Origin: Alphaproteobacteria bacterium
Lineage (GTDB): Bacteria; Pseudomonadota; Alphaproteobacteria; JAUHZC01
DNA length: 64,000 nucleotides
Direction: 5' to 3'
Assembly (NCBI GenBank): GCA_030425805.1
Contig: JAUHZC010000003.1
Span: 701 to 64,700, forward strand
The position numbers and the translations under genes were made by a program. The notes under the pieces are model-generated. The model was not told the DNA's origin and searched no databases. It saw nothing but the letters and a program-made list of their open reading frames with translations. This document shows, piece by piece, positions 6,519 through 50,523 of this stretch. Position 1 is the stretch's first letter. Each line of letters opens with the position of its first letter.

Positions 6519-7694
6519 TTAAAGATCGGACAAGCTGCTTTCAGGATTCTTCAATAGTTCCGTACAAACCGTATTGAGGCACAAACGTCCTTTTGACGTC
6601 GCCCGGAGAACATCTTTTTTTCCCTCCAAAAAACCACCCTCAGTCAAAAAAGCCAAGTTTTCTTGATCAAGATAGGTTTCAAGATTAAAGCCAAGAATCT
6701 TGTGTATTTCTTGTAGATCTATACCTCGCTCCAAACGTAACCCCATCATTACAGCCTCCTCAGCCTGGGTCTCCTCAGATAATGGTTCAAGGTGGGTGTG
6801 TCCCTCACCTTTCATTGCTCGCTTCATCCAGATTTCAGGGGCCCGATGACGACGCAAAAGGTGCCGCTTCCCGTTTACATGAATACGACCATGAGCCCCT
6901 GGGCCAACAGCTCCCCATTCCTGAGATTTCCAATAAAGAAGATTATGTTGTGAAGCTTGCCCGGGCTTTGCATAGTTTGAAACTTCATAAGCATGATATC
7001 CATGCTCTTCCATGATTTGGCAAGTCTTCTCATAAAAATCTACACTCAAATCTTCTCCCGGAATTTCTAATCTTCCAAGAGCATGATCCCGTGCAAAGGG
7101 TGTATTCGGTTCAATTGTTAACTGATACAAGGATAGATGTCCTTGAGTCAAAGGAAGTGCGCGTTTAAGTTCTCTTTCCCAATCTGACAAAGCTTGATGT
7201 GATCGAGCATATATAAGGTCAAAAGTATAACGCTCAAAAATTTTTTCGGCTGTTTCTATAGCTTTAAGTCCCTCAGCAGCTGTATGGGGGCGCCCTAGAA
7301 ATTGCAAAGCCTCATCTTCCAAAGATTGAATTCCAAGAGACAGTCGATTAACTCCAGCTTCCTGGAACCCTCTAAATTTTTCGATCTCTACAGACTGGGG
7401 ATTTGCCTCTAGTGTAATTTCTATATGGGGATCAACATCATATAGCTCTTTTGCTTTTTCAATAAGTTGGGCAACAGTCTCAGGATGCATAAGGGAAGGT
7501 GTTCCCCCACCAAAGTAGATCGTCTTGAGTGTTCGAAAACCTGTCCATTCTTTCAATTGATCTAACTCTGCTAGAGCTGCCTGAAGATATGCTTCCTCAG
7601 GTAAAGAGGTTGTAACGTGGCTATTAAAATCACAGTACGGGCACTTACGCACACAGTAAGGCCAGTGAATGTAAAGACCAAAATCTTGAAGCAT
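6519..7694 (-). CDS. hemW: radical SAM heme chaperone HemW (coproporphyrinogen III oxidase-like)
   Basis: '[19 protein letters not shown]' CxxxCxxC radical-SAM motif typical of HemW/HemN-like proteins. Conserved rph-rdgB-hemW order. Confidence 0.85.
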
Positions 7695-8287
7695 TACGAA
7701 TTCAAGAGAGCTTGAAAAGCTGGATCTTTCTGCAAGCCAGTCAGAGCATATGCCCGATGATTAGTTTTAGCCCGCACATCAGACTCAATTTCAGCAAGGG
7801 TTTCTGTTTTTCCTTCTGGCACGAAAACAGGGCAGTATCCAAAACCTTTATCTCCTCGAGGGGGGAAACTCAAATGACCATGAAGCTCTCCCACTGCCTC
7901 AACAAGGATGTCACCTGCTGGATTTGCGATAGTCAGATGAGAAACAAAATAGGCCTTGGAAGAACGCCCCTCCAGTTCCCGCTCCAAAGCAGAAAAAGCT
8001 TCCTGGGGTGTCGGGAAAGAATAGAACCATCTGCCCGTTTTAATCGGATCCCAGGTAGGGAGATCTGGAATACACAACCCACTATCGTCAGCCAGGGTGA
8101 TTTCACCTGAAATTTTAGCATAGGCCTTTGCCTTCAGACGTGCATTTTCTTGAAAAGTCGTGCCCGTCTCCTCAACATCTTCTAAGTCATCAGGACAAAG
8201 AATCTCAAGACCAAGATTCCCGAAAATCTCTTGCAGATCTTTTTGTTTTCCAGGATTAGCCGTGCCGAGAAAGAGTTTCAAGCCCAT
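7694..8287 (-). CDS. rdgB: non-canonical purine NTP pyrophosphatase (dITP/XTP pyrophosphatase, Ham1/RdgB)
   Basis: 'KLFLGTANPGKQKDLQEIFG' N-terminus and the 'GDKGFGYCPVFVPEG' Ham1 motif. The start is placed at the internal ATG (MGLKLF) because the long ORF would overlap rph by ~170 nt. Confidence 0.8.
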   Translation of the reverse strand: MGLKLFLGTANPGKQKDLQEIFGNLGLEILCPDDLEDVEETGTTFQENARLKAKAYAKISGEITLADDSGLCIPDLPTWDPIKTGRWFYSFPTPQEAFSALERELEGRSSKAYFVSHLTIANPAGDILVEAVGELHGHLSFPPRGDKGFGYCPVFVPEGKTETLAEIESDVRAKTNHRAYALTGLQKDPAFQALLNS

Positions 8288-9029
8288 GTGCGTCTCCTTT
8301 GTCTCCATAAATCGCCTGAAGTTGTGCCTTTGCAATTTCACTGATTCCTTGCTGAGCCAAAGACAGCATCTCCTGGAATTGATCCTGTCCAAATGGCGTA
8401 TCTTCAGCCGTAGCTTGAATTTCAATAATTTTTCCGCCAGGCGTCATGATAAAGTTTGCATCTGCATGGGCTGTAGAATCTTCTGTATAGCACAAGTCAG
8501 AGACAGCCTGTCCCTCCACAATCCCACAAGATAAGGCTGCAACTTGGTCTAAGAGGGGAAGCGCCTTGATTTTCTTTTCATCTACAAGCTTTTGCATGGC
8601 TTGATGCAAAGCAACATAAGCTCCAGAAATACTGGCACAGCGTGTTCCCCCATCTGCCAAAATCACGTCACAATCAATTTTGATTTGACGCTCTCCAAGG
8701 CCTTTTAAATCTACAACGGCTCTTAAAGATCTACCGATAAGGCGCTGGATTTCTTGAGTTCTCCCTGATTGTTTTCCTCGTGCTGCTTCCCTGTCTACAC
8801 GATCGTGGGTACTGCAGGGGAGCATGCCGTATTCAGCAGTAACCCAGCCATGACCAGCGTCCCGTAAAAAAGGAGGCAGTTTTTCAATAATTGTTGCAGC
8901 ACAAAGAACCTGTGTCCCCCCCATTTGAATCAAACAAGATCCATCAGCATGAGGCAAAAGGCCAACTTGAAAAGAAAGAGGGCGAATCTGCGCGGGCTTA
9001 CGACCATCAGCACGAGAGGTTGTGGACAT
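8256..9029 (-). CDS. rph: ribonuclease PH
   Basis: 'DCDVILADGGTRCASISGAYVAL' RNase PH signature. ~250 aa. Confidence 0.9.
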   Translation of the reverse strand: MSTTSRADGRKPAQIRPLSFQVGLLPHADGSCLIQMGGTQVLCAATIIEKLPPFLRDAGHGWVTAEYGMLPCSTHDRVDREAARGKQSGRTQEIQRLIGRSLRAVVDLKGLGERQIKIDCDVILADGGTRCASISGAYVALHQAMQKLVDEKKIKALPLLDQVAALSCGIVEGQAVSDLCYTEDSTAHADANFIMTPGGKIIEIQATAEDTPFGQDQFQEMLSLAQQGISEIAKAQLQAIYGDKGDAHGLETLSRHG

Positions 9030-11406: not shown

Positions 11407-11480
11407 GGCCCGATGGCAGAGTGGTGATGCAGAGGACTGCAAATCCTTGTACGTCGGTTCGATTCCGGCTCGGGCCTCCA
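11407..11480 (+). tRNA. tRNA-Cys (anticodon GCA)
   Basis: Cloverleaf read by eye: acceptor GGCCCGA/TCGGGCC, anticodon loop CT-GCA-AA, T-arm GGTTCGATTCC, 3' CCA encoded. Confidence 0.85.
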
Positions 11481-11533
11481 CTTTTAATAATTTTTTCACC
11501 TAAAACAATTTAAAATAATAAAAAACATTTTTT

Positions 11534-13351
11534 ATGAAGAAATTATACTTTTCCTTGTTCTTAATTCTTTCTCTTTCTGCAAGCAGCTATGGAGCTGCTG
11601 AGCCAGAGGCTACTCCTGGTGCTTCATCCTCGTCTGAAGCAGCCACAGCGCAGACACATGTTGATGCTCTACTTGCAGAATTGGACACTATGCGTGCAAA
11701 ATTTCATGGATGGGCTACTTCTCCAGCAGTCACAGCCAAGATGGGAGCCCTAACCCCATTTATGTTTCGTGGATGGGAAAGAGCCCGCAGAGATGTCCGT
11801 CGCTTGACTGTCCCTATGCGTGCCCATGCTGCTTCCCTCCCTCTGCACCAAAGGAAAGAAGGAGCGACTATTCGGGGCGCTCAATCCCCCATCCTTGCGG
11901 CTCGTTTCAAGGCCTTTGCAAGGATTGCACAAGCTCATATTGATGCTATTCGTACCAGAGGAGAAGAAATTTACAATCCTGGAAGGTTTGCAGGGGTTCT
12001 TGCAGAATTTGGAGGACGTGAAACACTTTCTGTTCATGAGATCATGACAGCAGTTTTGCGTATTACAACAGCTCTTTCTCCTGTAAGTCTGGAGAATGAA
12101 GCTATGGGTAAATTTACCCCTGAAGAAAAAAGTCTTCCGTGGTCAAAATATACAGGAGATCATTTGCACGGTTTTAAATCGAGTCGGCCTGCAGACTTTT
12201 CTTCACCGCAAGAACTTGCTAGTGAATTTCTTGATAAATTGGTAGGAAGTGCTCTGGATCCGATCCCTCTTCCCCTTCCTGGACAAGGCTTTCTTGGCAC
12301 TGGAACCCTAGGAATTCTTGTGACTTCTGGTGTAGGGGCCATTCCCCTTTCTTGCGAAGTCTGTAAGGTTCATGGTCTTGAAATGGCCTCAACAACAAGT
12401 GTTGAACATGATGCCTACCACTTGTTGGCCTCTTTTCTGACAAATCCAAGACCAGCTCTCCGTCAAGCAACCATTAGATACATTGCACAACACCACCCAG
12501 GAAAAGATGTTTTAGCGCTCCCTCCAGAAACCTTTGATGAAGCTGTCCTACATGTCCTAAGGAACTATGTAGAGTATGTAAGGTTTATGATAGGTGTTTT
12601 TAGGGCCGCATTAGAAAACGACGACCGTCCACAAGCTACCCGAGATTTAAATGCATTTTTCCTTATGGTTCACGAACTTGTTGGCGTGACTCCTCGCCTT
12701 GAAAACGAAGGTGGTAGTGTGGCAATGCTTGCAGAATACCTCACTGAGATCAGGGAAACAAATATTGAAAAAGAGACGCTTGGAAACCCAGATTCGCCTC
12801 TCCTAGCTGTGCTTGAAGATCGACTTGCAGCAGAGCCAGGTTTTGGAGCCTTTGAAACAGGGGGTGCTCGTTCAGATACGACAGATCTTTCCTTCTTAGA
12901 TGAGGCTGTTCAGGCACATTTGCGCCAGAAATATGGTGCTCCTGCAGGGGCTTATACGGGAACTCGTATTCAGAAAGTTTTTAACACAGGGTCAACCTGG
13001 CAAATTGAACTCGTTGTACCATACACAGGATCTGAGCCTGTAGCTGGAGTGCTTCATGTTGTTCTTGTCACAAGAAAATATCGAGAAGGGGATCGTCGTG
13101 ATGCCATAAAAACTCTACGCCTTTTTGGTCCTGAATATGCAGCCTTCGCAGGAAATCCCTATGGCCCTCTCTCTGAAGAGTTAAATGCTTTTGCTGATCG
13201 ACTGCTAGCACTTCATTTCCCTGGTGGCGGAGGAGGTGGAGGGGCAGCAGGGCAGCTAGCGGCAGCAGCGGGAAATGAGGACGAAGCCTTAGCGCCACAG
13301 GCTGGAGGTGGAGGAGGAGCAGCGGCAGCAAGCGCAGGTGGAACTCTTTAA
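11534..13351 (+). CDS. hypothetical exported protein with Gly/Ala-rich C-terminal tail
   Basis: Sec-type signal peptide (MKKLYFSLFLILSLSASSYGAAE). No recognisable domain. The C-terminal ~45 aa are almost purely G/A ('GGGGGGGAAGQLAAAAGNEDEALAPQAGGGGGAAAASAGGTL'). Lies between tRNA-Cys and tssF. Confidence 0.55.
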   Translation: MKKLYFSLFLILSLSASSYGAAEPEATPGASSSSEAATAQTHVDALLAELDTMRAKFHGWATSPAVTAKMGALTPFMFRGWERARRDVRRLTVPMRAHAASLPLHQRKEGATIRGAQSPILAARFKAFARIAQAHIDAIRTRGEEIYNPGRFAGVLAEFGGRETLSVHEIMTAVLRITTALSPVSLENEAMGKFTPEEKSLPWSKYTGDHLHGFKSSRPADFSSPQELASEFLDKLVGSALDPIPLPLPGQGFLGTGTLGILVTSGVGAIPLSCEVCKVHGLEMASTTSVEHDAYHLLASFLTNPRPALRQATIRYIAQHHPGKDVLALPPETFDEAVLHVLRNYVEYVRFMIGVFRAALENDDRPQATRDLNAFFLMVHELVGVTPRLENEGGSVAMLAEYLTEIRETNIEKETLGNPDSPLLAVLEDRLAAEPGFGAFETGGARSDTTDLSFLDEAVQAHLRQKYGAPAGAYTGTRIQKVFNTGSTWQIELVVPYTGSEPVAGVLHVVLVTRKYREGDRRDAIKTLRLFGPEYAAFAGNPYGPLSEELNAFADRLLALHFPGGGGGGGAAGQLAAAAGNEDEALAPQAGGGGGAAAASAGGTL

Positions 13352-13415
13352 TAAGACATCCCCTTCCCGGATAAGGAAAATCTTGGTAAGATGACCTGAC
13401 TTAGACAACATCAGG

Positions 13416-15239
13416 GTGGTTCGGGTGTCTTTAGCCCCATTGCTTTATTACTACCAACGAGAAATGAATTACCTCCGCAATGCGGGGCAGCGGTTTGCGC
13501 AACAATACCCAAAAATTGCCAAGCGCTTGGAGCTTGATCTTCAGGGATCTAGTGATCCCCATGTGGAGCGTCTCTTGGAAAGTTTTGCCTTTCTAACAGG
13601 AAAGATCCAACGGGATCTTGATGATCAATTCCCTCGTGTTGCTCAAAATCTCTTGAATGTTCTGTATCCCCACATGATGCAGTCCATGCCATCCACAACA
13701 ACACTTTGCTTCAAGCCAGATCCAGATCAAGCCCCTCCAAATGTTGGTATTGTCATTCCGCGCTATTATCCTATGTTTGCTGAGGTTGGGGAAGAGAATG
13801 AAGCATGTTGGTATCGCATTACACAAACGATTGAGCGTTACCCGTTAGAAGTGGAGAAAGTCCGTGTCTGTGGCCCGAGTGATCTTGGCTTGACTGGAAA
13901 GCGAGCTGTTTCTGAGCAGTGCCTTCATATTAAGTTTGAGGACATCTCTAGTATCCATATTTACAATCACATGCCAAAGAAAATTTGCATGCACTTGAGT
14001 GGAGATCCTCGGACAAAGCACTTGATTCTCCAGGCTCTTCTCTCCCAAGAGAATATTCAAATCCTTTGCGGAGACTTGAGTAAGGGCGAAGAAAATATGG
14101 AGGTTCTCCCCCGGGGAAGCCTGGTGCACCGTGGTTTTGAACAAGATGAATCCCTGCTCCTTCTTCCAGAAACTTATGGAGCTGGTCACCGCCTTTTAGA
14201 CGAGTTTTTCCACTATCCAGACAAATACATGTACCTTGATGTGGAAAATATTCCATATAACCTCTGTGAAGAGCAACTGGATCTTGTCTTTTCCCTACCC
14301 CGAGATTTTGAACTCAAAAACGGCCCACTCGATAAAGATACAATCATGTATGGTTGTGCCCCTGCCGTGAATCTCTTTCCTGTACTCACAGAGCCTGTTT
14401 CTCTCAAGCACACCCAAGTTGAGTATCGTCTTGTCGGAGATTATCGACGGGAAAACAGTGTTGAAATTCATTCCATCCACCGTGTGCTCGGCGCGAGTGA
14501 TGATCAGGATGAACCTTTTGAAATGGAACCCTATTTCAGCCTCCGCCACCAATCCTATAATAAAAATGGATCTTTTTGGCATGCGCGCCTCGTGCCCATG
14601 GAAATGAACAATGTTCAAGGAACGGATGTTCTGATTTCATTTGTCGATGCTGCTTTTAACCCCATCACCTCTCCCGTCGAAACAGTCTATGGGGAAGTCA
14701 TCTGCACAAATCGTGCAGCAACGCATATGATTGGTGCAAATACAACTTTTGCTAATGATGGGGATAGTGTCGAGGGTTACACTGTTACATGTATTGATAA
14801 ACCGACTTCTCAGGTTTACCCAGCCTTGGATGGACGAAATCAGTGGAAACTGATCTCATCACTTGCCCTAAGCCATCTCTCCCTCGCTGACCAAAAAGAT
14901 GGTCTAAAGCGCCTCCAGGAAACGCTCCTCCTCCATTGTCGCACGCCAGAGCAATACAGTATCGTTGATGGACTTGAGAAAATGACCATTAAAGATAGCG
15001 CCCACCGCTTTGGTAATGAGGCTTGGCGGGGCTTTGTACAAGGCATGGACATTGATATTCACATGGATGAGCAAAATTTTGCAGGCACAAGTTCTTTTCT
15101 GTTCTCTGAAATTTTGAGTTATTTCTTTGGTGAATATGCTGGTATGAACAGCTTCACCCGCCTGAATTATTATAACACCCAACAGAAAGGAGTGCGTCAC
15201 CGATGGCCAGCCCGCAGCGGAAATCGCGCCCTTCTATAG
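13416..15239 (+). CDS. tssF: type VI secretion system baseplate subunit TssF (ImpG/VasA family)
   Basis: The N-terminus 'LLYYYQREMNYLRNAGQRFAQQYPKIAKRLEL...DPHVERLLESFAFLTGKIQRDLDDQFPRVAQNLLNVLYPH' matches the highly conserved TssF N-terminal block (cf. 'LLxYYNxELxYLRExGxEFAxxxPKIAxRLxL...DPYVERLLEGFAFLTARVxLKLDxEFP'). 607 aa, which is typical TssF length. Confidence 0.8.
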   Translation: MVRVSLAPLLYYYQREMNYLRNAGQRFAQQYPKIAKRLELDLQGSSDPHVERLLESFAFLTGKIQRDLDDQFPRVAQNLLNVLYPHMMQSMPSTTTLCFKPDPDQAPPNVGIVIPRYYPMFAEVGEENEACWYRITQTIERYPLEVEKVRVCGPSDLGLTGKRAVSEQCLHIKFEDISSIHIYNHMPKKICMHLSGDPRTKHLILQALLSQENIQILCGDLSKGEENMEVLPRGSLVHRGFEQDESLLLLPETYGAGHRLLDEFFHYPDKYMYLDVENIPYNLCEEQLDLVFSLPRDFELKNGPLDKDTIMYGCAPAVNLFPVLTEPVSLKHTQVEYRLVGDYRRENSVEIHSIHRVLGASDDQDEPFEMEPYFSLRHQSYNKNGSFWHARLVPMEMNNVQGTDVLISFVDAAFNPITSPVETVYGEVICTNRAATHMIGANTTFANDGDSVEGYTVTCIDKPTSQVYPALDGRNQWKLISSLALSHLSLADQKDGLKRLQETLLLHCRTPEQYSIVDGLEKMTIKDSAHRFGNEAWRGFVQGMDIDIHMDEQNFAGTSSFLFSEILSYFFGEYAGMNSFTRLNYYNTQQKGVRHRWPARSGNRALL

Positions 15240-16240
15240 GGGAATATCTCTTTGAGGAGCCCTATAAGTTTGACTTTCACCAGGCTTTAAAAATCCTGGA
15301 TGCCCTTAATCCTAAGGGTGTTCCTGTTGGAGAAGGCGTCCTCCCTGAAAGGGAATCCGTGCAACTGAGATCTCGGGTTTTTTTGGGTAGCTCTCCGAGC
15401 CAGCTCCAACAACTCCTGCCAGGACATCGACTGGATCCTCCTAAACTTGAAGTGAATTTTATGGGAATAGCAGGAGAATCTGGCCCCCTACCTGCTGTCT
15501 ATGCTGAAATGCTTCTTGAGCGCAAAGCTAAAAAAGATCACGCAATGGACGATTTTCTCCAGATCTTTAACCATCGGCTTCTCTCAATGGTTGCAAGAAA
15601 TGGGCGTAAGCACTGGCCAGCTCTTCATAATGGGCGTATTGAAGACAATCCTTTTGCTGATACCTTGCTTTCTTTGTCAGGGATGTTTTTCCTCAAAGAT
15701 AGCCCTCTGAAAACTATTGAAAATCGGAGTTTCCTTCCCTACACAGGGATGCTTTGGGATCAACGATGTTCAGCACGTTCCCTCCAGGACATGATAAGAA
15801 ATTTCCTCCAAGTCCCCGCAGCCGTAAAATCTTTCATTGGCAAATGGCATCATATTCCAGGAAATGCCCAAACACGCATCCACTCTGTGTATGAAAAAGG
15901 ACAAAATCACCGCCTTGGAGAAACAGCTACACTAGGAGATCGATACTGGGATCAAGCCGCTGAAATTCTTGTAGAGCTTGACCTTGAGAAGTTTGAGCGA
16001 TGGGAAAGTCTCTTACCGGGCCAAATTGCTTGGTCGCGTGTGATGACACTGATTCGCTCAGCTGTTCCCTCCCAAATCCAGGTCCAAGTTAAGTTGACTC
16101 TCTCTCAGAAACAATTCAAACCCACCCGACTTGATCAGCAATCTCCCCTCGGCTGGGGAAGTTTTCTTGGCTCCCCAAAAAAAACAAAAGAAAGCTTCGG
16201 AATCAGTGGGGAGTTTTGTCAGAATCTAGAATTATACTAA
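15203..16240 (+). CDS. tssG: type VI secretion system baseplate subunit TssG (ImpH/VasB family)
   Basis: N-terminal 'EEPYKFDFHQALKILD' matches the TssG hallmark 'EPxRFxFFQAVRLLE'. 345 aa. Overlaps the tssF stop, the usual tssF-tssG coupling. Confidence 0.75.
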   Translation: MASPQRKSRPSIGEYLFEEPYKFDFHQALKILDALNPKGVPVGEGVLPERESVQLRSRVFLGSSPSQLQQLLPGHRLDPPKLEVNFMGIAGESGPLPAVYAEMLLERKAKKDHAMDDFLQIFNHRLLSMVARNGRKHWPALHNGRIEDNPFADTLLSLSGMFFLKDSPLKTIENRSFLPYTGMLWDQRCSARSLQDMIRNFLQVPAAVKSFIGKWHHIPGNAQTRIHSVYEKGQNHRLGETATLGDRYWDQAAEILVELDLEKFERWESLLPGQIAWSRVMTLIRSAVPSQIQVQVKLTLSQKQFKPTRLDQQSPLGWGSFLGSPKKTKESFGISGEFCQNLELY

Positions 16241-23234: not shown

Positions 23235-23693
23235 ATGGTGGATGAGTTAAATTACGACCTCATGGTACAAGAAGCGCTCCGCCGGATTGTGCGGGATGCC
23301 TTGACTGTTGTCCAAAATCATGGACTTGCAGACAATCATCATTTCTACATTACCTTCCGTACCAACCGAAGTGATGTGAGCCTCCCCCCCTACTTACGGG
23401 AAAAACACCCTGAAGATATTACTATTGTTCTTCAGCATCAATTTTATGACCTCGCTGTTTATGAGAACCACTTTGAGGTCACGCTTAGTTTTAATGACAA
23501 ACATGAGCGCTTGAAAGTTCCCTACGGAGCGATTACAAGCTTTATGGATCCTTCCGTAAAATTTGGTCTTCAGTTTGTGCCACAAGCTGAAAACTATGCT
23601 ATGGATCCAAAAAACCCCACCCCCGAAGGGGCAGGGCCTACGTCTAGTAAGGTCGTTGACCTGGCTGCGTTTCGCCAACGCCGGGGATCTTAA
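23235..23693 (+). CDS. sspB: ClpXP adaptor SspB-like protein
   Basis: Resembles alphaproteobacterial SspB ('YDLMVQEALRRIVRDAL...HHFYITFRT...'). Ends with a flexible tail preceding 'AAFRQRRGS', reminiscent of a ClpX-binding peptide. Confidence 0.65.
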   Translation: MVDELNYDLMVQEALRRIVRDALTVVQNHGLADNHHFYITFRTNRSDVSLPPYLREKHPEDITIVLQHQFYDLAVYENHFEVTLSFNDKHERLKVPYGAITSFMDPSVKFGLQFVPQAENYAMDPKNPTPEGAGPTSSKVVDLAAFRQRRGS

Positions 23694-24598
23694 CCGTCCG
23701 TTGGAGCAGCAGCAGCGGCAGCAGCGCCTAAGGTGCCCGAAGCATCAACGTCAATAGCTTCTGCGGCGGCAACTCCTTCATCGTCATCGTCTCCACCACC
23801 TTCTTCAACAGCCATAACTTCGGCAGCAGCTGCCACAAGAATTGTGAGTGCCGCTGAAGCCTTAGCTGTAGCTGCTTCAATATCCTCAGCTGTCCAACCA
23901 TCGTGAGGTGTTGGGTCAGCCAATGCACCCCCTAGATCATCTAGTTCATCTTTTAGAGCTGTAATTTTTCCGAATTTTACTTTTGCAACTTCTACAAGAG
24001 CTGTAAGAGTCTGCATGAGCTTCCCAAACTTTTCTAGCTTCCCTTCTGGGGGACCTGCAGCTTTTACTGTATTCACTATCTTCCCAACAGTATTAAGGAA
24101 AAGCTCCAAACTTGCACCATTTTTGCCACGTAAGTCCTCCAACTGTTCCATTACTGTCTCTGCAGTCTCCGCTGCTGATGTTGCTTTTTTTATGCCATCA
24201 TCAATACCGTCAAGAACTCCATTCAAGTCCCTCAATGCTGCCGCTTGTTCTTCTGTTAATAAACCAAGTTCCCCAAGCATTCTTTCTACAGATGTGACGA
24301 GCCCTCTCACTCTCACAAAGCCTCTTTGTGCTGCAGTCGCTGCATGACGTGCAGCCTCAACAGCAGAATCAAGATTATCCCAGACAACAACTGCAGCAGC
24401 CTGTGCCCCTCCACAGCACCTAGCAATCCACCCTAAACATCCTGTTGGGGCAGGTAGCTCCCTCGTAAGATGTTCCTCCTTCGGGATTTCCTTCATTGCC
24501 TCTCGAAGCGGAGCTGAGTCTGAAACATCTGCCCCATAACCAGGCATTGAATAAACGCTCCCAAGTAATAGACAAACAAAAGTTGAAACCTTTTTCAT
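23690..24598 (-). CDS. hypothetical exported alpha-helical protein with Cys-Cys motif and acidic Gly/Ala-rich tail
   Basis: Signal peptide (MKKVSTFVCLLLGSVYSMPGYGA), 'GCLGWIARCCGGAQAAAVVV', then long predicted helices. The C-terminus is 'EEGGGDDDDEGVAAAEAIDVDASGTLGAAAAAAAPTDG'. Confidence 0.5.
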   Translation of the reverse strand: MKKVSTFVCLLLGSVYSMPGYGADVSDSAPLREAMKEIPKEEHLTRELPAPTGCLGWIARCCGGAQAAAVVVWDNLDSAVEAARHAATAAQRGFVRVRGLVTSVERMLGELGLLTEEQAAALRDLNGVLDGIDDGIKKATSAAETAETVMEQLEDLRGKNGASLELFLNTVGKIVNTVKAAGPPEGKLEKFGKLMQTLTALVEVAKVKFGKITALKDELDDLGGALADPTPHDGWTAEDIEAATAKASAALTILVAAAAEVMAVEEGGGDDDDEGVAAAEAIDVDASGTLGAAAAAAAPTDG

Positions 24599-26925: not shown

Positions 26926-27001
26926 TCCCCGGTAGCTCAGTTGGTAGAGCAAGTGGCTGTTAACCACTGGGTCGGCGGTTCGAGTCCGTCCCGGGGAGCC
27001 A
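26926..27001 (+). tRNA. tRNA-Asn (anticodon GTT)
   Basis: Cloverleaf read by eye: acceptor TCCCCGG/CCGGGGA, D-arm TAGCTCAGTTGGTAGAGC, anticodon loop CT-GTT-AA, T-arm GGTTCGAGTCC, CCA encoded. Confidence 0.85.
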
Positions 27002-27945: not shown

Positions 27946-29082
27946 TTACCTTACAGCCCCTCTCAAAAAGGGCTCAGCCCTCACAGATCCCCTTTTAAGA
28001 TAAAGTTGGAAATGCTTACGCTCTGCCTGTGGATCCTGAACAACGATGTGGTCTGGAACAGGGTCAGCATGACAGCGGCAATGATGTTTCTCTCCAGGCA
28101 GGAAATCAGGAGGATTTTCTCTTGAATAGACTTTTCCCTCTCTTTCCAGATGTTCCATCCGCACTTTTTTGTCCATCTTCGTACGCCAGATAAAGTACGC
28201 CTTATTCTTTCCCCACTGATAAGCCTCTTTACCTTGGGATTGAGGGGAGATTCTGGTCTTACCAATCTCTGCCTGCTGGATCCCATAAGAAAGGGCATGT
28301 GTTGGTTTTGTATAAGTCGGGCATTGATAGGAAGCAAGGAGTGCAGCCTCAGCATCCCGGCGATTCTGAAGGCTAGGATCTCGCTTTACATTCGATCGTT
28401 CCTTCACCTCCCTCACCGCACCCTGAAGATAGGAAGTCTTACCCGTTTTGACATAGTTCCGGATAAGTTGGCAGAAAGTTGTTTTTCCATTGGCTAACTC
28501 AGGATGATTAAAATAAAGACTCAAGATTGTCATTTTTTCATTAGCCCGGAGTCTTTTCCAATCAGGACCATAGATATTGCAGACTTCCTGATACCGGGTT
28601 TGGATAGAATCTTTATAAGCCAAGGTGACCTGTTCATCGGTTAGGTTTTTCTCACCATAGTAGACCTTCTTCATCAGACCAGGCTCTTTGAAAAGCTGGT
28701 CATAATAAAGTTGGGTCTTTTCTTCGTTGATGTTTAACCCGATACCGACCGTGCAAATTGGTAATTGTTTATATTTTGCAAAACAAATTTCCTCTAATTG
28801 GTCACGCCTTTCTTGGCCCAAAGCATAGAATTTTTTGGAGGAGATATACTGTGTTTTCTTATCAGGATCTGGAATACCATCCAAATAGGCTTCATTGCGA
28901 CAACCTTCAACGGTGGTGATAAAAAACTTAAGCCGATCGAAAAAAATATCATCCTCTAAATCATGAACACTCTGAGCAGAATAGTTATGTATTGAATCCC
29001 GCAGTATTTCTGAAATCCGGGTTTTTTGACGGTCCCCCAAGAAACTTCCCCTTGTGTTTTTTATAAAGGTAAATTTTCTCAA
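27946..29082 (-). CDS. fusion protein: N-terminal GH24 phage-type lysozyme domain + C-terminal phage MuF/SPP1-gp7-like domain
   Basis: The N-terminus carries the lysozyme catalytic block 'TVEGCRNEAYLDGIPDP...ICTVGIGLNI' (E-G...Y.D..G..T.G.G). The C-terminus carries a MuF-type 'KVRMEHLEREGKVY...PGEKHHCRCHADPV' (R..H..L.G...P..HPNCRC) motif. No signal peptide. Confidence 0.5.
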   Translation of the reverse strand: MRKFTFIKNTRGSFLGDRQKTRISEILRDSIHNYSAQSVHDLEDDIFFDRLKFFITTVEGCRNEAYLDGIPDPDKKTQYISSKKFYALGQERRDQLEEICFAKYKQLPICTVGIGLNINEEKTQLYYDQLFKEPGLMKKVYYGEKNLTDEQVTLAYKDSIQTRYQEVCNIYGPDWKRLRANEKMTILSLYFNHPELANGKTTFCQLIRNYVKTGKTSYLQGAVREVKERSNVKRDPSLQNRRDAEAALLASYQCPTYTKPTHALSYGIQQAEIGKTRISPQSQGKEAYQWGKNKAYFIWRTKMDKKVRMEHLEREGKVYSRENPPDFLPGEKHHCRCHADPVPDHIVVQDPQAERKHFQLYLKRGSVRAEPFLRGAVR

Positions 29083-29144: not shown

Positions 29145-30014
29145 CTATTTATATTCAAAGGCACCAAAGGGAATGTGGTATAAACCCCGCATAGCAAAAT
29201 CCTCGGCTTTTTCTTTCGGGTAATTCCTTTTCAACCAATATGATGTTAATACTGCTTTTGCTTTTTCATAGCGCGGCAAAATACGACGATAGATTTTCTT
29301 GTTATAAGCACTTTTCTTTCCCCAACTTTCATAGGGGCGTAGAGATTTATCGGGTACTGGTGGAAGGCCCCATGGTGCAACATGCGTGAGGACAAAATTG
29401 CGGCTGTAAGTTTTGATAAAATAGTAATACATTGTTCCGTCTTTATCAGGATTAGGAAAATTTTTCCCATATGCCTGTTTTGAAACTTCCAGATATTCAT
29501 CCAGTTCACGATAGGGGTAAGGGATATCCTTGTCGTAATCGTCAGGGATAATAATGCCCACGATACCAATATCACGCGTACATCCAAATCTAGGTCTCGT
29601 TGCCTCAACAAGCCCCGGAAATTTTTCTAAATCTTCTGGTGAAAGTGCAAAATGTCGATGATAGCCGCCATATGCGATGGTTGTCACAAGGCTTTTATCC
29701 GTACCATCATAAGCCATAGGGTCCCCAAACTCATATATGCTGAGTCCTCTCTCTACAGGAACAGAATTGTGAATTTTCTGCTGCAATCGTAAAATTTCAC
29801 CAAATTCATCCTGTGTTTTGGCGGGTTTACTATGAAGATCAAGTATTCTCCGTAAAATTTCCTGCACTTCCTCAATAGAGAGGGTAACTTCATTTGATAA
29901 AGAATTTTTTCCTCTTTCCTGATTGCACTCCCCTCGAACAGAGGAACTACACAAGAGTAGCAGCACTGCAAAAGTGAGCAAAAATAAACTTTTTGGAGAT
30001 AAGAATTTTTTCAT
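29145..30014 (-). CDS. hypothetical exported protein
   Basis: Signal peptide from the internal ATG (MKKFLSPKSLFLLTFAVLLLLCSSSVRG). No recognisable domain. Trp/Tyr-rich. Confidence 0.45.
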   Translation of the reverse strand: MKKFLSPKSLFLLTFAVLLLLCSSSVRGECNQERGKNSLSNEVTLSIEEVQEILRRILDLHSKPAKTQDEFGEILRLQQKIHNSVPVERGLSIYEFGDPMAYDGTDKSLVTTIAYGGYHRHFALSPEDLEKFPGLVEATRPRFGCTRDIGIVGIIIPDDYDKDIPYPYRELDEYLEVSKQAYGKNFPNPDKDGTMYYYFIKTYSRNFVLTHVAPWGLPPVPDKSLRPYESWGKKSAYNKKIYRRILPRYEKAKAVLTSYWLKRNYPKEKAEDFAMRGLYHIPFGAFEYK

Positions 30015-30054
30015 AATATATCTTTCTAAGTATAAAATCATAATTGATATCAGG

Positions 30055-30507
30055 TTATTCCTCTCCCAATCTCCCAAACTTCAGCAGGATGGCATTAGCC
30101 CGGAAATGTACATCTCGCTCATTATAACCAAGTTCAATGGCTTTTTTGTAATCTTTGAGGGCGCCTTCCAGATTTCCTAGGTCCTCTTTACTTACCCCGC
30201 GATGGTAGTACACTTCTCCCAAGTAGGGCTGGCGATTGTATTTTATTGCCAAAGTAAGGGCCTCCATTGCATCTTGGTAGCGCCCAAAAAAATCAAGGGT
30301 CACGCCTCTTTGAAAATGAGCTTCTGCATTTTCAGGTCTATATTTCAAAATATCTTCACTCAGAGCTAAGGCTTCCTCTAGCTTTGCTGTTGCCCGGAGG
30401 TCAAAAATTTGGAAGCGAATTTTTCTATTTGACCAATCTTCATATTTGGCATGTCCTTCATAGGCTATCAGGCTTAAGAAGGTTAAAAGTGTCAGTGCGG
30501 TTTTCAT
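30055..30507 (-). CDS. exported tetratricopeptide (TPR) repeat protein
   Basis: Signal peptide (MKTALTLLTFLSLIAYEGHA), followed by three or four TPR-like units ('AEAHFQRGVTLDFFGRYQDAMEALTLAIKYN', 'YYHRGVSKEDLGNLEGALKDYKKAIEL'). Confidence 0.6.
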   Translation of the reverse strand: MKTALTLLTFLSLIAYEGHAKYEDWSNRKIRFQIFDLRATAKLEEALALSEDILKYRPENAEAHFQRGVTLDFFGRYQDAMEALTLAIKYNRQPYLGEVYYHRGVSKEDLGNLEGALKDYKKAIELGYNERDVHFRANAILLKFGRLGEE

Positions 30508-42134: not shown

Positions 42135-44825
42135 TTAGCGATGCTTTTCAAAAACCATTACGATTTCTGTTCCCTGGTCAGGTTGAGACCGGACTCTCAT
42201 TTCCCCCTGAGAGAGATCAATGATTTCTTTACAGTATGAGAGTCCAATTCCCATCCCTGAGGATTTTGTTGTAAACATTGGGTCAAATATATTCTCAAGA
42301 ACGTCTGGCTGCATCCCAGGACCATTGTCCTGTATTGCGACAACAACCTTATCCTCATCAACTTCAATTTCGATCTCAATTCGAAGCTGAGAGCCCCTGC
42401 GTCCTTGCCCACAAAAAGCCTCATAAGCGTTTTTGAACAGGTTATGCATGACCTGAATCATAGCTGATTTATGGGTAGAAATCAGAGCATCTTGTATCAG
42501 GCCCTTTAGGATAAAGATCTCCCCCTTTTCTTCAGGCGGGAGAGGATAAATATCGATAGCCTCTCGAAGAATATCCCCGATATTTTCTTTGTGAACAAAA
42601 AGTTCTTTGTTTGTTCCCTTCAACTGCCTGATTGAGAGCTGTTGAATCTGGGAAATGCGTGTCACTGTATTTCCAATTTCCTCGATATTTTTCTGCAACC
42701 CTTCAACATCTTCCTTGCTGCCCTTAATTTCAACCTTCTTTGCAATATTTTTAAGAGAAAATACACGCATTCCTAGGGTTGATAGAGGCGTAGAAAGCTC
42801 ATGAGAAATATAATTTGCTTGGTATTTTTCAAGCTGTTTTGCTGAAAACTCATCCCCCTCTTTTTTTCGAGAGAAGACCATTCCCATGAGGGATGAAAAA
42901 ATAATACTGAAAACAAAAAGTAAAATATCATTAGATGCGAAATCGAAACAGCTTCCTCCGCATAAAAGAATATACAAACCAAAGGCAAGTAGGCTCCCAC
43001 CTGCAAAAAGAATCATAAAAACACGCCAAGAGACGAGGAGAGCCATGAGAAAAAGCCCCAAAGTTAAATTTGTGAGCCCGAATGTATCTAGGTTTCCTAG
43101 AAGACCCTGCACCATCAAAGTGAAAGGAAGCGTTATCATGACAGTGAAATGCCAATAGGCTGTGAAATACCGCAAAAGACTCTTTGGCCAATATCCTTTT
43201 AGCAAGAGGAGAACACAGAGAAAGCCAGAAAATAGCTTGAGAAAAATCATCTCACCAGAAACCAGAGTTGATTTTTGGATCCACATGAAATTCGGCGCAA
43301 TGTAGACACACAGCACAAAAACGGAAAAGCCTGTAGCTGGAAGCCATTCTAACCTAGCTGGATTGAGAATTTCAGAAAAAGAAGGCTTCTTTTTGCTCGA
43401 CTCTCTTTGGATTCTTATGATTTTTTTCTGTGATTCAGGTGCAAACCTAGATTTTGGCTCGAAAAAAAAAAATCGCGTGAAGAAAACTACTGCGTTTCCT
43501 AGCATTCCAACAATAAAACCTGGAACATATGTTAAATCCACAAGATTCAAAACATCCCAAATGATAAAAGAAACAATCCCCCCGAGTACTGCATAAAGAA
43601 AGGTTTTCTCTGAAACTTTGATTCCAAAAATTGCAGCATAAAGCGGAACAACAGCAACTGGACTCCAAAAGCTCATGAAATAGACCATGATACTCAGGAT
43701 ATCCTTGAAAATGAGCGCAATAGCCATAGCAAAAAGAGCTGCAGAAGGAGTAAAAATCCAAATCCAGTTCCGCATACGCTTTTCATCTGATCTTGTTTTT
43801 TCTTTTAATCCAAGAACATCCCCCAAGAAAGTGGAAGTACTTAAGTTCAGAGCAGAGTCTGCAGATGACATAATAACAGCCATGAGGCCTGAGGCCGCAA
43901 TCCCCTTTACACCTATAGGCAAAAACTCTGAAATAAGATGAGGAAAGGCGAGCTTGGAATCAATATTTGGAAAAATAATATAGGCTGCAATCCCAATTAA
44001 CCCAATAAAGAAAAAGAAAGGAAACTCCAGAATTGCCGTCAAAATCATTGATTTAGACATTTGCTTAGGTCCCCGTGAAATGAAAAACCTGTGCAAAATT
44101 AGAGGGTTTAAAATCGGTAAGAATTGAGCAAAGAAATACGTTAGAAGAAGCCCTGTATCTGCTTTTGTATGTACAAAAGAATAGTGCGTTTCAGGGATTT
44201 GAGAAAAGAATTTTTGATATCCCCCAAAGTAGTCTAGCAAAAACATGCAAACTGAAGGAACGCTCACAACGATGAAGCAAAATTGCAAAACGTCCGTGAA
44301 CACAACAGCACGAACCCCCCCAAACATTGTATAAAAAAGAACGATTCCCACACTGAAAAGAACACCGAGATTAAAGGGAATATTTAAAAAATATTGAAAA
44401 ACAAATCCCATTGCTGAAACTTGTAATGCAAATGTTCCAAGGGTCTTAATAAGCGCACTTAATCCAATAATTTTCTTAGCATACTGACCATAAGCCTTTG
44501 CCCCCATATCCCCAGGAGTCATACATCCATGGAATCTTCCCATCTTGGGAATGACAACAACACCGAGAAATAAATCAGCAAATGCCTGCAGTGCTACAAG
44601 AATAAGGATAGGGTAACCGTACTCAAAAACACGGGTAGAAAGCCCTAGACTTGATCCGCCCCCCAACCAAGTAGCTGCCGTTGTACAAACAAGGACGGGA
44701 AGTGAAAAATTGCGATCTGCGACAGAGAAATCTTTTAAGGACTCAACTTTCTTGCCTCTTACAATAGCTACCCACAAGGTGCCGAGAAGAAATAATCCGA
44801 TAATACCTAAGTCAATATTGTGCAT
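42135..44825 (-). CDS. hybrid sensor: sodium:solute symporter (SSF) domain fused to histidine kinase (HisKA + HATPase_c)
   Basis: ~12-13 TM helices of SSF type in the N-terminal ~600 aa. H-box 'ISHELSTPLSTL'; N/G boxes 'HNLFKNAYEAF', 'QDNGPGM', 'GMGIGLSYC'. Confidence 0.8.
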   Translation of the reverse strand: MHNIDLGIIGLFLLGTLWVAIVRGKKVESLKDFSVADRNFSLPVLVCTTAATWLGGGSSLGLSTRVFEYGYPILILVALQAFADLFLGVVVIPKMGRFHGCMTPGDMGAKAYGQYAKKIIGLSALIKTLGTFALQVSAMGFVFQYFLNIPFNLGVLFSVGIVLFYTMFGGVRAVVFTDVLQFCFIVVSVPSVCMFLLDYFGGYQKFFSQIPETHYSFVHTKADTGLLLTYFFAQFLPILNPLILHRFFISRGPKQMSKSMILTAILEFPFFFFIGLIGIAAYIIFPNIDSKLAFPHLISEFLPIGVKGIAASGLMAVIMSSADSALNLSTSTFLGDVLGLKEKTRSDEKRMRNWIWIFTPSAALFAMAIALIFKDILSIMVYFMSFWSPVAVVPLYAAIFGIKVSEKTFLYAVLGGIVSFIIWDVLNLVDLTYVPGFIVGMLGNAVVFFTRFFFFEPKSRFAPESQKKIIRIQRESSKKKPSFSEILNPARLEWLPATGFSVFVLCVYIAPNFMWIQKSTLVSGEMIFLKLFSGFLCVLLLLKGYWPKSLLRYFTAYWHFTVMITLPFTLMVQGLLGNLDTFGLTNLTLGLFLMALLVSWRVFMILFAGGSLLAFGLYILLCGGSCFDFASNDILLFVFSIIFSSLMGMVFSRKKEGDEFSAKQLEKYQANYISHELSTPLSTLGMRVFSLKNIAKKVEIKGSKEDVEGLQKNIEEIGNTVTRISQIQQLSIRQLKGTNKELFVHKENIGDILREAIDIYPLPPEEKGEIFILKGLIQDALISTHKSAMIQVMHNLFKNAYEAFCGQGRRGSQLRIEIEIEVDEDKVVVAIQDNGPGMQPDVLENIFDPMFTTKSSGMGIGLSYCKEIIDLSQGEMRVRSQPDQGTEIVMVFEKHR

Positions 44826-47592: not shown

Positions 47593-48440
47593 TGATTATT
47601 GTTCCAAGTTTTGTTGTTGCCATAGATGATGATGTTCATTTTCTAGATAGTTTAAAAAATCTCATTAAAGCCTCTGGTTTTGAAGCAGAGACTTTTCACT
47701 CCCCTCATAGAGCATCTGACTTTGTTCTTGAAAGTGAGAAAACGCTTCAGGATATGGGGTTTTATGAAACATCACCCTATACAGACGATGGCTTTGAAAA
47801 TTTAGTAGAAAAGCTTTTAGACCAAAAGCCCCCGATCATAAGCGTTCTTAGTATTGATCATAACATGATTAATATTACGGGGCTTGAGTGGCTAGAGTTA
47901 CACCCTTTCCACGCCCAGAAAATGCTTGTTTCTGGGGTACTTGGGGATACAGGAGCAGTTGAAGCTTTTAATAGAAAAAAAGTGAACTTCTTTCTACAAA
48001 AAGGGTCTGCAGACTTTGTCTCAAGGTTCAAACAGGGTATGAGAGAGCTCAACTTTGATTTTTTCGCCCAGTTTACCAGCAAAAACTATAGAGAGGATGT
48101 GATCCAATCTCTTAAGAATCTCTATATGGAAAATCAGTTTGATTTTCTTTTACCTCGCTCAACAGCCCCGATTTTTGAAATTACAGCTGATAATCGAAAG
48201 GGAATTCTTCATGTTTTTGATAAAGATGAAAAACTCATACAGCTTCAATACGCAAAAGAGTCTGGTGCAGCAAAAGATGTTTTGGCACTTTTAGAGAAGA
48301 AGGATATGGCATTTTGTCATGGAATCCCTACTAATTCTCAAAAAGCATCCCCAAAATCTTGGACAGCAGAGGATATTGTTCAACTCACGAATGTTCCCAA
48401 AACGGAGACTTTTGTTCATATATCTTATGAACCAACCTAA
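47592..48440 (+). CDS. atypical receiver (REC)-like domain protein with unknown C-terminal domain
   Basis: Translationally coupled to the kinase (ATGA). The N-terminus has REC-like landmarks: acidic pair 'AIDDD', putative phospho-Asp 'VLSIDHNMINITG', and 'FFLQKG' Lys. The alpha2-beta3 insert is unusually long. The C-terminal ~140 aa are unassigned. Confidence 0.45.
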   Translation: MIIVPSFVVAIDDDVHFLDSLKNLIKASGFEAETFHSPHRASDFVLESEKTLQDMGFYETSPYTDDGFENLVEKLLDQKPPIISVLSIDHNMINITGLEWLELHPFHAQKMLVSGVLGDTGAVEAFNRKKVNFFLQKGSADFVSRFKQGMRELNFDFFAQFTSKNYREDVIQSLKNLYMENQFDFLLPRSTAPIFEITADNRKGILHVFDKDEKLIQLQYAKESGAAKDVLALLEKKDMAFCHGIPTNSQKASPKSWTAEDIVQLTNVPKTETFVHISYEPT

Positions 48441-48542
48441 TTTTTAACAAATTTAAAATTACCCCTGGTAAATTTTGATTCAGGGTCCTATCTCTCAGAA
48501 ATAAGTATTAAAATTTGTTTTGCTACAGAAGAATCTGTAGAA

Positions 48543-49025
48543 TTGCAATCAGGGGAGGAAAACGAAAGCCGTATGGATATTACTCAAAATGTCATTAAAA
48601 GAACAAAGCTATATTTGAAAGAAAACCGTCTTTCAATTCCTGAGATGGAGCTTCGGGCAGGTCTTCGCGAGGGAACCCTTCGTAATCTTCTGTATGGGCG
48701 TGTCAAGAACCCCACTATTGGAACACTCTATAAAATGTCACGAGCTATGGATACTTCCATAGAAACACTTATCTCTGATCCTGAAAAAAGTCTTTATCAA
48801 AAAGAAATTGATTTGCTCATTAAAATTGCACACAAGGTCTTTCCGCCCATGAAGACTGAAAATGCAGAGAAAGATGATATTTTGAAGATGATTTGTGACA
48901 TTTACGACTATAGTGAGCGCACACCAAATAAGGAACTTGATGATAATTTCTTTCAATTTTCATTAGATAGATACTATCGAGAAAAAGAAAGCCCTGGTCA
49001 GCCTCAACCTAAAGACTTCAAGTAG
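48543..49025 (+). CDS. XRE-like helix-turn-helix protein
   Basis: 'MELRAGLREGTLRNLLYGRVKNPTIGTLYKMSRAMDTSIETLI' HTH_XRE-like. Paralogous to 50074..50523. Confidence 0.5.
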   Translation: MQSGEENESRMDITQNVIKRTKLYLKENRLSIPEMELRAGLREGTLRNLLYGRVKNPTIGTLYKMSRAMDTSIETLISDPEKSLYQKEIDLLIKIAHKVFPPMKTENAEKDDILKMICDIYDYSERTPNKELDDNFFQFSLDRYYREKESPGQPQPKDFK

Positions 49026-49960: not shown

Positions 49961-50073
49961 CTCTTTATTTTATAATTATAACTTGAATACTTGAAAATTT
50001 TATTAAAATTTCCTTGGTGAGAAAATTTAAGCTAAGAATATATACAATTTAAATCACTGAGAAGATAAAAACT

Positions 50074-50523
50074 TTAGGCATCTTTGCTTCCCGCTCCCTT
50101 ATGAGACATGAGAAATTTTTCTTTTAAATATGCAATAAAAGCCGCATCTAGTTGATGATTTTTCCCATATACAAGGGCTTCCCACAACAGATTTGAAAAA
50201 TCACGGTAGCTTCCTCCATTTTCTAAAACAAAGGGAAGGAGGTATTTGCTTGCAATATTGATGTTACGAAACTCTAGAGATTTATACTGATCATGATCTT
50301 CTAAAAGGTCATTTATCGTAAGATCCAGAGCCTCTGACACCCTTACAAGCACATGCAAAGAGGGATTTTTGGTGTTGCCATTGAGAATATTTTTCAAAGT
50401 CTGGGGTTTGAGTCCGAGGCTTCTCTCAAACTCAGTCAAAGTATACTTATTTTCAGCCAAGTGGCGAGAAACCTTTGTTTTGAAGTTATCTATATGGCTC
50501 ATTCCAACCTCGCTAGATTTCAT
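50074..50523 (-). CDS. XRE-like helix-turn-helix protein (paralogue of 48543..49025)
   Basis: 'LTEFERSLGLKPQTLKNILNGNTKNPSLHVLVRVSEALDLTINDLL' HTH_XRE-like. Confidence 0.5.
   Translation of the reverse strand: MKSSEVGMSHIDNFKTKVSRHLAENKYTLTEFERSLGLKPQTLKNILNGNTKNPSLHVLVRVSEALDLTINDLLEDHDQYKSLEFRNINIASKYLLPFVLENGGSYRDFSNLLWEALVYGKNHQLDAAFIAYLKEKFLMSHKGAGSKDA

What the first reader, a model, noticed from the sequence alone, without database searches (positions are those of the whole stretch)
11407..16240. Orphan tssF-tssG (T6SS baseplate wedge) pair plus a large exported protein, inserted right after tRNA-Cys
Two adjacent ORFs carry the most diagnostic N-terminal blocks of the T6SS baseplate proteins TssF and TssG: 'YPKIAKRL...DPHVERLLESFAFLT' and 'EPYKFDFHQALKILD'. 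No sheath (tssBC), hcp, vgrG, clpV, tssK or tssM is present anywhere in the 64-kb window. The flanks are pure housekeeping (hrcA-grpE, Tim44-mltA-smr).

The pair is preceded by a 605-aa Sec-signal protein with no recognisable domain, and the three genes sit directly 3' of a tRNA-Cys, which is a classical integration site. Three readings are possible: a scattered or minimal T6SS; a degenerating system in a reduced genome; or a baseplate module reused with another contractile apparatus. All three would be unusual for an alphaproteobacterial symbiont-like genome.
Basis: partly seen in the sequence, partly recalled or inferred. Interest (0 to 1): 0.8.

Follow-up and report, generated by a model that had tools for sequence, protein, structure and literature searches.

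The report
Stand-alone tssF-tssG of a scattered T6SS
The two genes are intact type VI secretion baseplate genes (TssF and TssG), and their isolation from the other secretion genes is the layout already published for Holosporales-type endosymbionts, so the finding is real but ordinary.

Summary
tRNA-Cys lies at 11407-11480. It is followed on the + strand by a 605-aa Sec-signal orphan ORF, a full-length TssF (TIGR03359, 501 bits against a cutoff of 260) and a full-length TssG (TIGR03347, 225 against 143). No other T6SS gene occurs in the 64 kb.

The "orphan pair" reading is only partly right. In about 21 Holosporales-type genomes and MAGs (Ca. Caedibacter acanthamoebae, Finniella, Odyssella, Paracaedibacteraceae), tssF-tssG also stand alone within ±10 kb. 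Other phyla show the canonical tssBC…tssE-tssF-tssG-clpV-vgrG cluster. [quoted passage not shown]

The pair is under long-term purifying selection (pN 0.25-0.37, pS about 0.8, no stops). I found no island hallmarks at the tRNA: no att repeat, no integrase, flat GC. The 605-aa protein belongs to a very rare family, with two relatives among 1.84 billion representatives. It is not a conserved partner of tssFG.

I could not reach the rest of this genome, so the presence of the other T6SS modules is inferred. Verdict: a new member of a known kind, of low interest.

The parts
11407..11480 (+). tRNA-Cys (GCA). It is a neighbour of the locus and shows no sign of being an integration site.
   Evidence: ARAGORN. 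No direct repeat of its 3' end lies downstream. Two Logan contigs overlap only inside this tRNA.
11534..13351 (+). 605-aa exported orphan protein with a Sec signal, a mainly helical body and a Gly/Ala-rich tail. It belongs to a rare family with conserved VHG, HDxxH and HE motifs. Its function is unknown, and it is not a conserved T6SS partner.
   Evidence: - No Pfam, NCBIfam or PDB-sequence hit.
- Exhaustive phmmer against 1.84e9 representatives found only P0247 (E 9e-22) and P0248 (E 1e-5).
- Conserved columns are V279-H280-G281, H292-D293-x-x-H296, T303, N304, H380-E381 and L530-F-G-P533.
- The AF2 model has pLDDT 38.
- It is unrelated to the gene upstream of tssF in L002.
13416..15239 (+). 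tssF, the T6SS baseplate wedge subunit, full length. The likely start is the GTG at 13425 (604 aa, NCBI model P0121). The ATG at 13464 would cut off the conserved N-terminal LxYYQRE block.
   Evidence: - PF05947 at E 2.9e-155 and TIGR03359 at 501 bits against a cutoff of 260.
- About 80 columns are invariant across 9 TssF sequences.
- Closest relatives are P0002 and P0003, at 51-54% identity depending on the alignment used.
- pN is 0.32-0.34 against pS 0.79.
15203..16240 (+). tssG, the T6SS baseplate wedge subunit, full length. Its start overlaps the end of tssF by 37 nt, as in the other tssF-tssG loci examined, which suggests translational coupling.
   Evidence: - PF06996 at E 6.5e-71 and TIGR03347 at 225 bits against a cutoff of 143.
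- The overlap with tssF is also seen in L006-L083.
- pN is 0.37 against pS 0.82 versus L002.

Best explanation
The two ORFs are the functional tssF and tssG genes of a canonical (T6SS-i type) type VI secretion system. The system's core genes are dispersed around the chromosome in small modules, as in Holosporales/Holosporineae-type intracellular alphaproteobacteria. This window holds only the [tssF-tssG] module.

From established structural work on the T6SS baseplate (my own knowledge, not tested here), TssF and TssG assemble 2:1 with TssE and TssK into wedges. Six wedges surround the VgrG hub, dock on the TssJLM membrane complex and start sheath and tube polymerisation.

The overlap of the tssF stop with the tssG start suggests coupled translation of the two partners. 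The pair probably shares a same-strand transcription unit with its neighbours. These are the 605-aa exported orphan upstream and the Tim44-like, mltA and smr genes downstream. No functional link to them is implied.

Shown: the identity, completeness and selective constraint of TssF and TssG; their isolation within 64 kb; and the same isolated layout in related lineages.

Inferred: that the remaining modules (tssBC-hcp, tssKLMA, vgrG, tssE) exist elsewhere in this genome, and that the apparatus is active.
For: - Both ORFs give full-length equivalog-level HMM matches, and no phage-baseplate family competes.
- No other T6SS gene occurs in the 64 kb.
- Of 80 TssF loci from GTDB species genomes, about 21 are Holosporales-type. 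These include the Ca. Caedibacter acanthamoebae complete genome, Caedibacter spp., Finniella, Odyssella, Holosporales and Paracaedibacteraceae MAGs. All of them have tssF-tssG alone within ±10 kb.
- Nearly all loci from other phyla have tssB-tssC…tssE directly upstream, and clpV or vgrG downstream in many.
- The window's two closest relatives also carry the pair among housekeeping genes.
- In an NJ tree the clade window+L001+L002 sits next to the isolated-pair sequences.
- Synonymous sites are saturated (pS 0.78-0.82) while pN is 0.25-0.37, and there are no stops in three lineages.
[quoted passage not shown] Bodocaedibacter.
- PMC11909080, PMC9992710 and bioRxiv 10.1101/2025.10.03.678719 report the T6SS as conserved across Holosporales.
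Against: - The rest of this genome could not be examined. No tssB, C, K, L, M, vgrG or tssE from the same organism was seen.
- Placement of the organism inside Holosporineae is not demonstrated. HslU and HrcA searches place it only among Rhodospirillales-like Alphaproteobacteria. HrcA is 64-67% identical to three relatives (one NCBI record labelled only 'Alphaproteobacteria bacterium', two unnamed ENA proteins) and 53-56% to Azospirillaceae.
- TssF is only 36-38% identical to any named homologue, and the NJ tree is not bootstrapped.
Confidence: 0.8

Rival explanations
1. Relic pair: the lineage has lost the rest of the T6SS, and tssF-tssG survive as a non-functional or decaying remnant in a reduced genome.
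For: No other T6SS gene lies in the 64 kb. The rest of the genome was not seen. TssF is very divergent from all named homologues, at 36-38% identity.
Against: - Both ORFs are uninterrupted and match their profiles end to end.
- The pair is kept intact in three lineages that differ by about 50% at the protein level, with pS saturated and pN 0.25-0.37.
- The invariant TssF family columns are retained.
- The literature reports retention of the T6SS even in the smallest Holosporineae genomes (PMC11909080).
Confidence: 0.1
2. Mobile island: the 605-aa gene plus tssF-tssG were inserted together at tRNA-Cys by horizontal transfer.
For: - The three genes sit directly 3' of tRNA-Cys.
- Synteny with relatives (rph-hrcA-grpE) ends just before this point.
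- The Logan assembly graph branches inside the tRNA.
- In L001 tssF also follows a tRNA gene, tRNA-Pro.
Against: - No integrase or recombinase, and no direct repeat of the tRNA 3' end.
- GC and skew are indistinguishable from the flanks.
- The nearest TssF relatives are vertical-looking lineage members, not foreign taxa.
- The 605-aa gene does not travel with tssFG in any relative.
- Contig breaks at tRNAs are expected in metagenome assemblies.
Confidence: 0.06
3. Re-used baseplate: TssF and TssG serve a different contractile device (an eCIS or phage-tail-like particle) rather than a T6SS.
For: None directly. The only support is that no sheath or tube genes are visible in the window.
Against: - The matches are to the T6SS-specific equivalog models, and no Baseplate_J or gp6-like hit was found.
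- The window contains no tail-sheath, tube or tape-measure genes. The only phage-like signal is a marginal MuF domain at 27946-29082.
- Known eCIS use their own gp6/gp7 homologues (my own knowledge).
Confidence: 0.02

Closest known systems
Multi-locus T6SS of Holosporales/Holosporineae endosymbionts (Ca. Bodocaedibacter vickermanii, Paracaedibacteraceae, Caedimonadaceae), PMC8163844
   Same: - The tssF-tssG module stands alone among housekeeping genes, with no tssE upstream and no clpV or vgrG downstream.
- The two ORFs overlap.
- The host is an alphaproteobacterial, symbiont-like genome of moderate GC.
- Orphan exported proteins are abundant nearby.
   Different: - TssF and TssG here are only about 36-38% and 32-42% identical to those of named Holosporales, and form their own long branch with two metagenomic relatives.
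- There is no flank synteny with any of them.
- Membership of the organism in Holosporineae is unproven.
- The other modules of the system were not seen.
Canonical single-cluster T6SS-i (for example Azospirillum, Acidobacteriota and Nitrospinota loci L015-L085; the alphaproteobacterial MAG L009)
   Same: The TssF and TssG families are the same at equivalog level. The tssF/tssG overlap is the same. The wedge function is presumably the same.
   Different: In those loci tssB-tssC-(hcp)-tssE lie immediately upstream, and clpV and vgrG lie downstream in many. Here none of these lies within at least 13 kb upstream and 47 kb downstream.
Phage T4 gp6/gp7 and the Baseplate_J wedge proteins of contractile phage tails and eCIS
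   Same: They are distant structural homologues of TssF and TssG, with the same wedge role (my own knowledge).
   Different: No profile match to those families was found. There are no tail genes in the window.

Membership tests
TssF (TIGR03359 / PF05947) | Full-length match above the curated cutoff | tested here: met
   501 bits against a cutoff of 260, covering profile 1-600 of 600. PF05947 at E 2.9e-155, covering 5-608 of 608.
TssF (TIGR03359 / PF05947) | Not better explained by phage Baseplate_J or gp6 families | tested here: met
   PF05947 is the only Pfam family reported at E <= 0.1.
TssG (TIGR03347 / PF06996) | Full-length match above the curated cutoff, encoded immediately after tssF | tested here: met
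   225 bits against a cutoff of 143. PF06996 covers 1-304 of 304. The ORF starts 37 nt before the tssF stop.
Functional T6SS (13 core genes tssA-M) | Sheath (tssBC), tube (hcp), spike (vgrG), tssE, tssK and the membrane complex (tssJLM) present in the same genome | not testable with these tools
   None of these is in the 64-kb window. The rest of the assembly could not be fetched.
Holosporineae-type scattered T6SS layout (PMC8163844) | tssF-tssG form their own locus, separated from all other core genes | tested here: met
   The window meets this. The same was reproduced in about 21 Holosporales-type loci, and the window's two closest relatives L001/L002 show it too, in contrast to the clustered layout in other phyla.
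Holosporineae-type scattered T6SS layout (PMC8163844) | The organism belongs to Holosporineae | tested here: inconclusive
   - The best named TssF hits are Caedibacter, Finniella and Odyssella, and the NJ tree places the window next to them.
- HrcA and HslU place it only among Rhodospirillales-like Alphaproteobacteria.
- Holosporineae are nested in Rhodospirillales (PMC11909080).
tRNA-associated genomic island | Integrase or recombinase next to the tRNA | tested here: not met
   None was found among the ORFs from 10.7 to 18.3 kb.
tRNA-associated genomic island | Direct repeat of the tRNA 3' end at the distal border | tested here: not met
   No repeat family involves 11407-11480.
tRNA-associated genomic island | Deviant base composition | tested here: not met
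   GC is 0.44-0.48 inside against 0.41-0.48 in the flanks. The single bump of 0.51 is the Gly/Ala tail of the 605-aa ORF.
Pseudogenised remnant | Frameshifts, premature stops or relaxed constraint | tested here: not met
   There are no internal stops. pN is 0.25-0.37 while pS is 0.78-0.82.

The most novel reading that the evidence does not exclude
The 605-aa exported protein may be the founding member of a new, extremely rare family of secreted metal-dependent enzymes or effectors. It carries conserved VHG…HDxxH…HE residues and has only two relatives among 1.84 billion representative proteins. It would be co-transcribed with the T6SS baseplate genes and would act in the host interaction of a deep, unsampled Rhodospirillales/Holosporineae-like symbiont lineage. 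A variant of this reading is that this lineage scattered its T6SS independently of Holosporineae.
Probability: 0.1. Interest if true: 0.45.

Novelty: new member of a known kind. Interest (0 to 1): 0.15.

Why it matters
The result adds one more divergent lineage to those that keep T6SS baseplate genes as a stand-alone tssF-tssG module. This fits the published view that a dispersed T6SS is a retained, probably host-interaction, apparatus in Holosporales-like endosymbionts. It opens no new question about T6SS biology.

It also carries a practical lesson for window-based scans. The absence of partner genes in 64 kb is not evidence of an orphan system in lineages with rearranged genomes.

The only unexplored item is the rare 605-aa exported family.

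Tried and rejected
1. Fetching the rest of the genome failed. Exact-protein look-ups for TssF (607 and 604 aa), TssG and edge genes returned only two short Logan contigs.

2. Taxonomic placement through HslU and HrcA searches gave only "Rhodospirillales-like Alphaproteobacteria". Paper searches for ERR3420974, GCA_028353575 and JAOMOP found nothing.

3. I tested whether the 605-aa protein is a conserved T6SS accessory, and rejected it.
- It shows no similarity to the 672-aa TPR-like exported protein upstream of tssF in L002.
- It has no homologue in any of the 88 loci held at that point.
- A JGI metagenome scan found none.

4. The structure of the 605-aa protein could not be used. The AF2 model from a 3-sequence alignment has pLDDT 38, so no fold search was run. 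A PDB sequence-profile search was empty.

5. The promoter and terminator scan of 11.2-18.5 kb was no better than shuffled sequence.

6. A JGI metagenome scan for close TssF relatives gave at best 36% identity.

7. Flank synteny between the window and Holosporales tssFG loci: none.

8. I considered searching for TssC of the same organism with a foreign TssC query and dropped the idea. The hit list shows only the best 120, and a long-branch orthologue would not rank there.
Full report
**What is in the sequence**

ARAGORN places tRNA-Cys(GCA) at 11407-11480 on the + strand. Three + strand ORFs follow.
- 11534-13351: 605 aa.
- 13416-15239: 607 aa from the first GTG.
- 15203-16240: 345 aa.

The second ORF matches Pfam T6SS_TssF over the whole profile (E 2.9e-155). 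It also matches the NCBIfam equivalog TIGR03359 at 501 bits against a cutoff of 260. The third ORF matches T6SS_TssG over the whole profile (E 6.5e-71) and TIGR03347 at 225 bits against a cutoff of 143. No phage-baseplate family competes with either match.

The conserved TssF N-terminal block (LxYYQRE…) lies upstream of the first ATG. The start is therefore one of the GTGs, and the 604-aa NCBI model implies 13425.

The 605-aa ORF has a typical Sec signal. It has no Pfam, NCBIfam or PDB-sequence match.

**The rest of the window**

ORFs of the window not already covered by the precomputed Pfam listings were scanned against Pfam, and precomputed Pfam was read for the first 27 kb. I also ran tblastn with TssB, TssC, Hcp, TssE, ClpV, VgrG and a YwqK/MORN protein. 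These came from a canonical cluster in an alphaproteobacterial MAG (L009, annotated; tblastn).

Nothing T6SS-related turns up outside 13.4-16.2 kb.

**Is the pair really "orphan"?**

The window's sequence is on a 256,936-bp NCBI contig and on two Logan contigs of run ERR3420974. I could not fetch the remainder of that genome.

The closest TssF relatives are two metagenomic proteins at 51-54% identity, P0002 and P0003. Both are followed by tssG and sit among housekeeping genes, with no other T6SS gene on 13-16 kb of contig.

A scan of GTDB species genomes returned 80 TssF loci with ±10 kb of flank. Searching them with the canonical-cluster proteins gives a clean split.
- About 21 loci carry tssF-tssG alone. 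They come from Ca. Caedibacter acanthamoebae (complete genome CP008936), Caedibacter spp., Ca. Finniella, Ca. Odyssella, and MAGs labelled Holosporales, Paracaedibacteraceae or unclassified Alphaproteobacteria.
- Nearly all loci from Azospirillum, Acidobacteriota, Nitrospinota, Myxococcota and others show tssB-tssC…tssE-tssF-tssG, with clpV or vgrG downstream in many.

In a simple NJ tree, the window plus its two relatives form a long branch next to the isolated-pair sequences.

**The literature already describes this**

The description of Ca. [quoted passage not shown] It also reports that the genes are transcribed (PMC8163844).

[quoted passage not shown] Two further papers say the same.

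So the layout that looked odd in a 64-kb window is the norm for this kind of bacterium.

**Function or decay?**

Among the window, L001 and L002, synonymous differences are saturated (pS 0.78-0.82). Non-synonymous differences are 0.25-0.37, and there are no internal stops. About 80 family-invariant TssF columns are retained. This is long-term purifying selection, not a decaying remnant.

The mechanism follows from established baseplate structures and is my own knowledge, not tested here. A TssF2-TssG1 core, together with TssE and TssK, forms a wedge. Six wedges surround VgrG and couple the TssJLM membrane complex to sheath and tube assembly.

The 37-nt overlap of tssF and tssG recurs in the other loci I inspected. 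It fits coupled translation of the two partners.

**Island at tRNA-Cys?**

I found none of the usual marks.
- No repeat family involves the tRNA.
- There is no integrase.
- GC is 0.44-0.48, like the flanks. The one 0.51 bump is the Gly/Ala tail of the 605-aa ORF.

In relatives the rph-hrcA-grpE block is conserved, but other genes follow it (L086, L087). Their tssFG pairs lie in other neighbourhoods. In L001 the pair sits directly after tRNA-Pro.

This pattern looks like general genome rearrangement rather than a recent insertion, though an old insertion cannot be excluded. The Logan assembly breaks inside the tRNA, which is expected for a conserved tRNA in a mixed sample.

**The 605-aa protein**

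An exhaustive phmmer search of 1.84 billion representative proteins finds only two relatives: P0247 (E 9e-22) and P0248 (E 1e-5). P0247 also has a signal peptide, and both relatives end in an Ala-rich tail.

The three proteins share V279-H280-G281, H292-D293-x-x-H296, T303, N304, H380-E381 and an LFGP motif. This hints at a metal-binding or catalytic site.

- The AF2 model was unusable, with pLDDT 38.
- The protein has no homologue beside tssFG anywhere.
- The large exported protein upstream of tssF in L002 is an unrelated TPR/SNAP-like protein.

I therefore treat the 605-aa protein as a lineage-specific exported protein that happens to be the upstream neighbour. It may be co-transcribed with tssFG, but that is untested: the promoter and terminator scan was uninformative.

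**Who is the organism?**

- HslU is 70-73% identical to many Alphaproteobacteria.
- HrcA is 64-67% identical to three relatives (one NCBI record labelled only 'Alphaproteobacteria bacterium', two unnamed ENA proteins) and 53-56% to Azospirillaceae-type Rhodospirillales.
- Holosporineae are now placed inside Rhodospirillales (PMC11909080), so this is compatible with a slowly evolving or basal relative. It does not prove membership.

This uncertainty, together with the unseen remainder of the genome, is the main limitation of the verdict.

**Verdict**

Interest is low. The only loose end with any novelty is the rare exported 605-aa family.

Noticed in passing
window 27946-29082 (-), next to tRNA-Asn 26926-27001: A 378-aa protein whose C-terminus matches Phage_Mu_F exactly at the Pfam cutoff (E 1.2e-6). 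It is followed by an orphan exported gene (29145-30077) and a TPR gene (30055-30507). It could be a prophage or GTA remnant, or a MuF-type polymorphic-toxin N-domain.
   Followed up: no
window 23690-24598 (-) and 54924-55487 (-): Two more Sec-signal orphan proteins (302 and 187 aa) rich in Ala, Gly and Pro. The 302-aa one ends in an acidic Ala/Gly-rich tail like that of the 605-aa protein. Neither has a Pfam match above the curated cutoff. Together they suggest a set of lineage-specific exported proteins.
   Followed up: partly
window 42135-44825 (-), 45022-47592 (+), 47592-50523: Two divergently transcribed fusions of a sodium:solute symporter domain to a histidine kinase. Next to them lie an atypical receiver-domain protein, a 282-aa ORF without a Pfam hit and two Cro/C1-type HTH proteins.
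   Followed up: no
window ~11427-11480; L004 and L169: The two Logan contigs of ERR3420974 that cover this region overlap only inside tRNA-Cys (coordinates derived). The assembly graph therefore branches within the tRNA gene.
   Followed up: partly
L001 12203-13206: The end of this ENA contig is an inverted copy of its own tssG and tssF. It is an assembly hairpin artefact, not a split tssG.
   Followed up: yes
L001 9782-9858 and 10001-11806: In the relative that carries P0003, tssF starts about 140 nt after a tRNA-Pro gene. It is a second case of tssFG directly downstream of a tRNA, but a different one.
   Followed up: partly
L009, L012, L081 (genome contigs): Three low-GC MAGs, labelled "uncultured Alphaproteobacteria bacterium", "uncultured Rhizobiaceae bacterium" and "Rhizobium sp. 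Q54", carry a complete compact cluster: tssB-tssC-hcp-x-tssE-tssF-tssG-clpV-vgrG-ywqK. A Fic protein lies nearby in L009. Their TssF groups near the Holosporales-type sequences. This may be a clustered relative of the scattered systems.
   Followed up: partly
window 7694-8425 (-) versus 7712-8110 (+): A naive longest-ORF call picks a spurious + strand ORF here. The real gene is the Ham1-like dITP/XTP pyrophosphatase on the - strand.
   Followed up: yes
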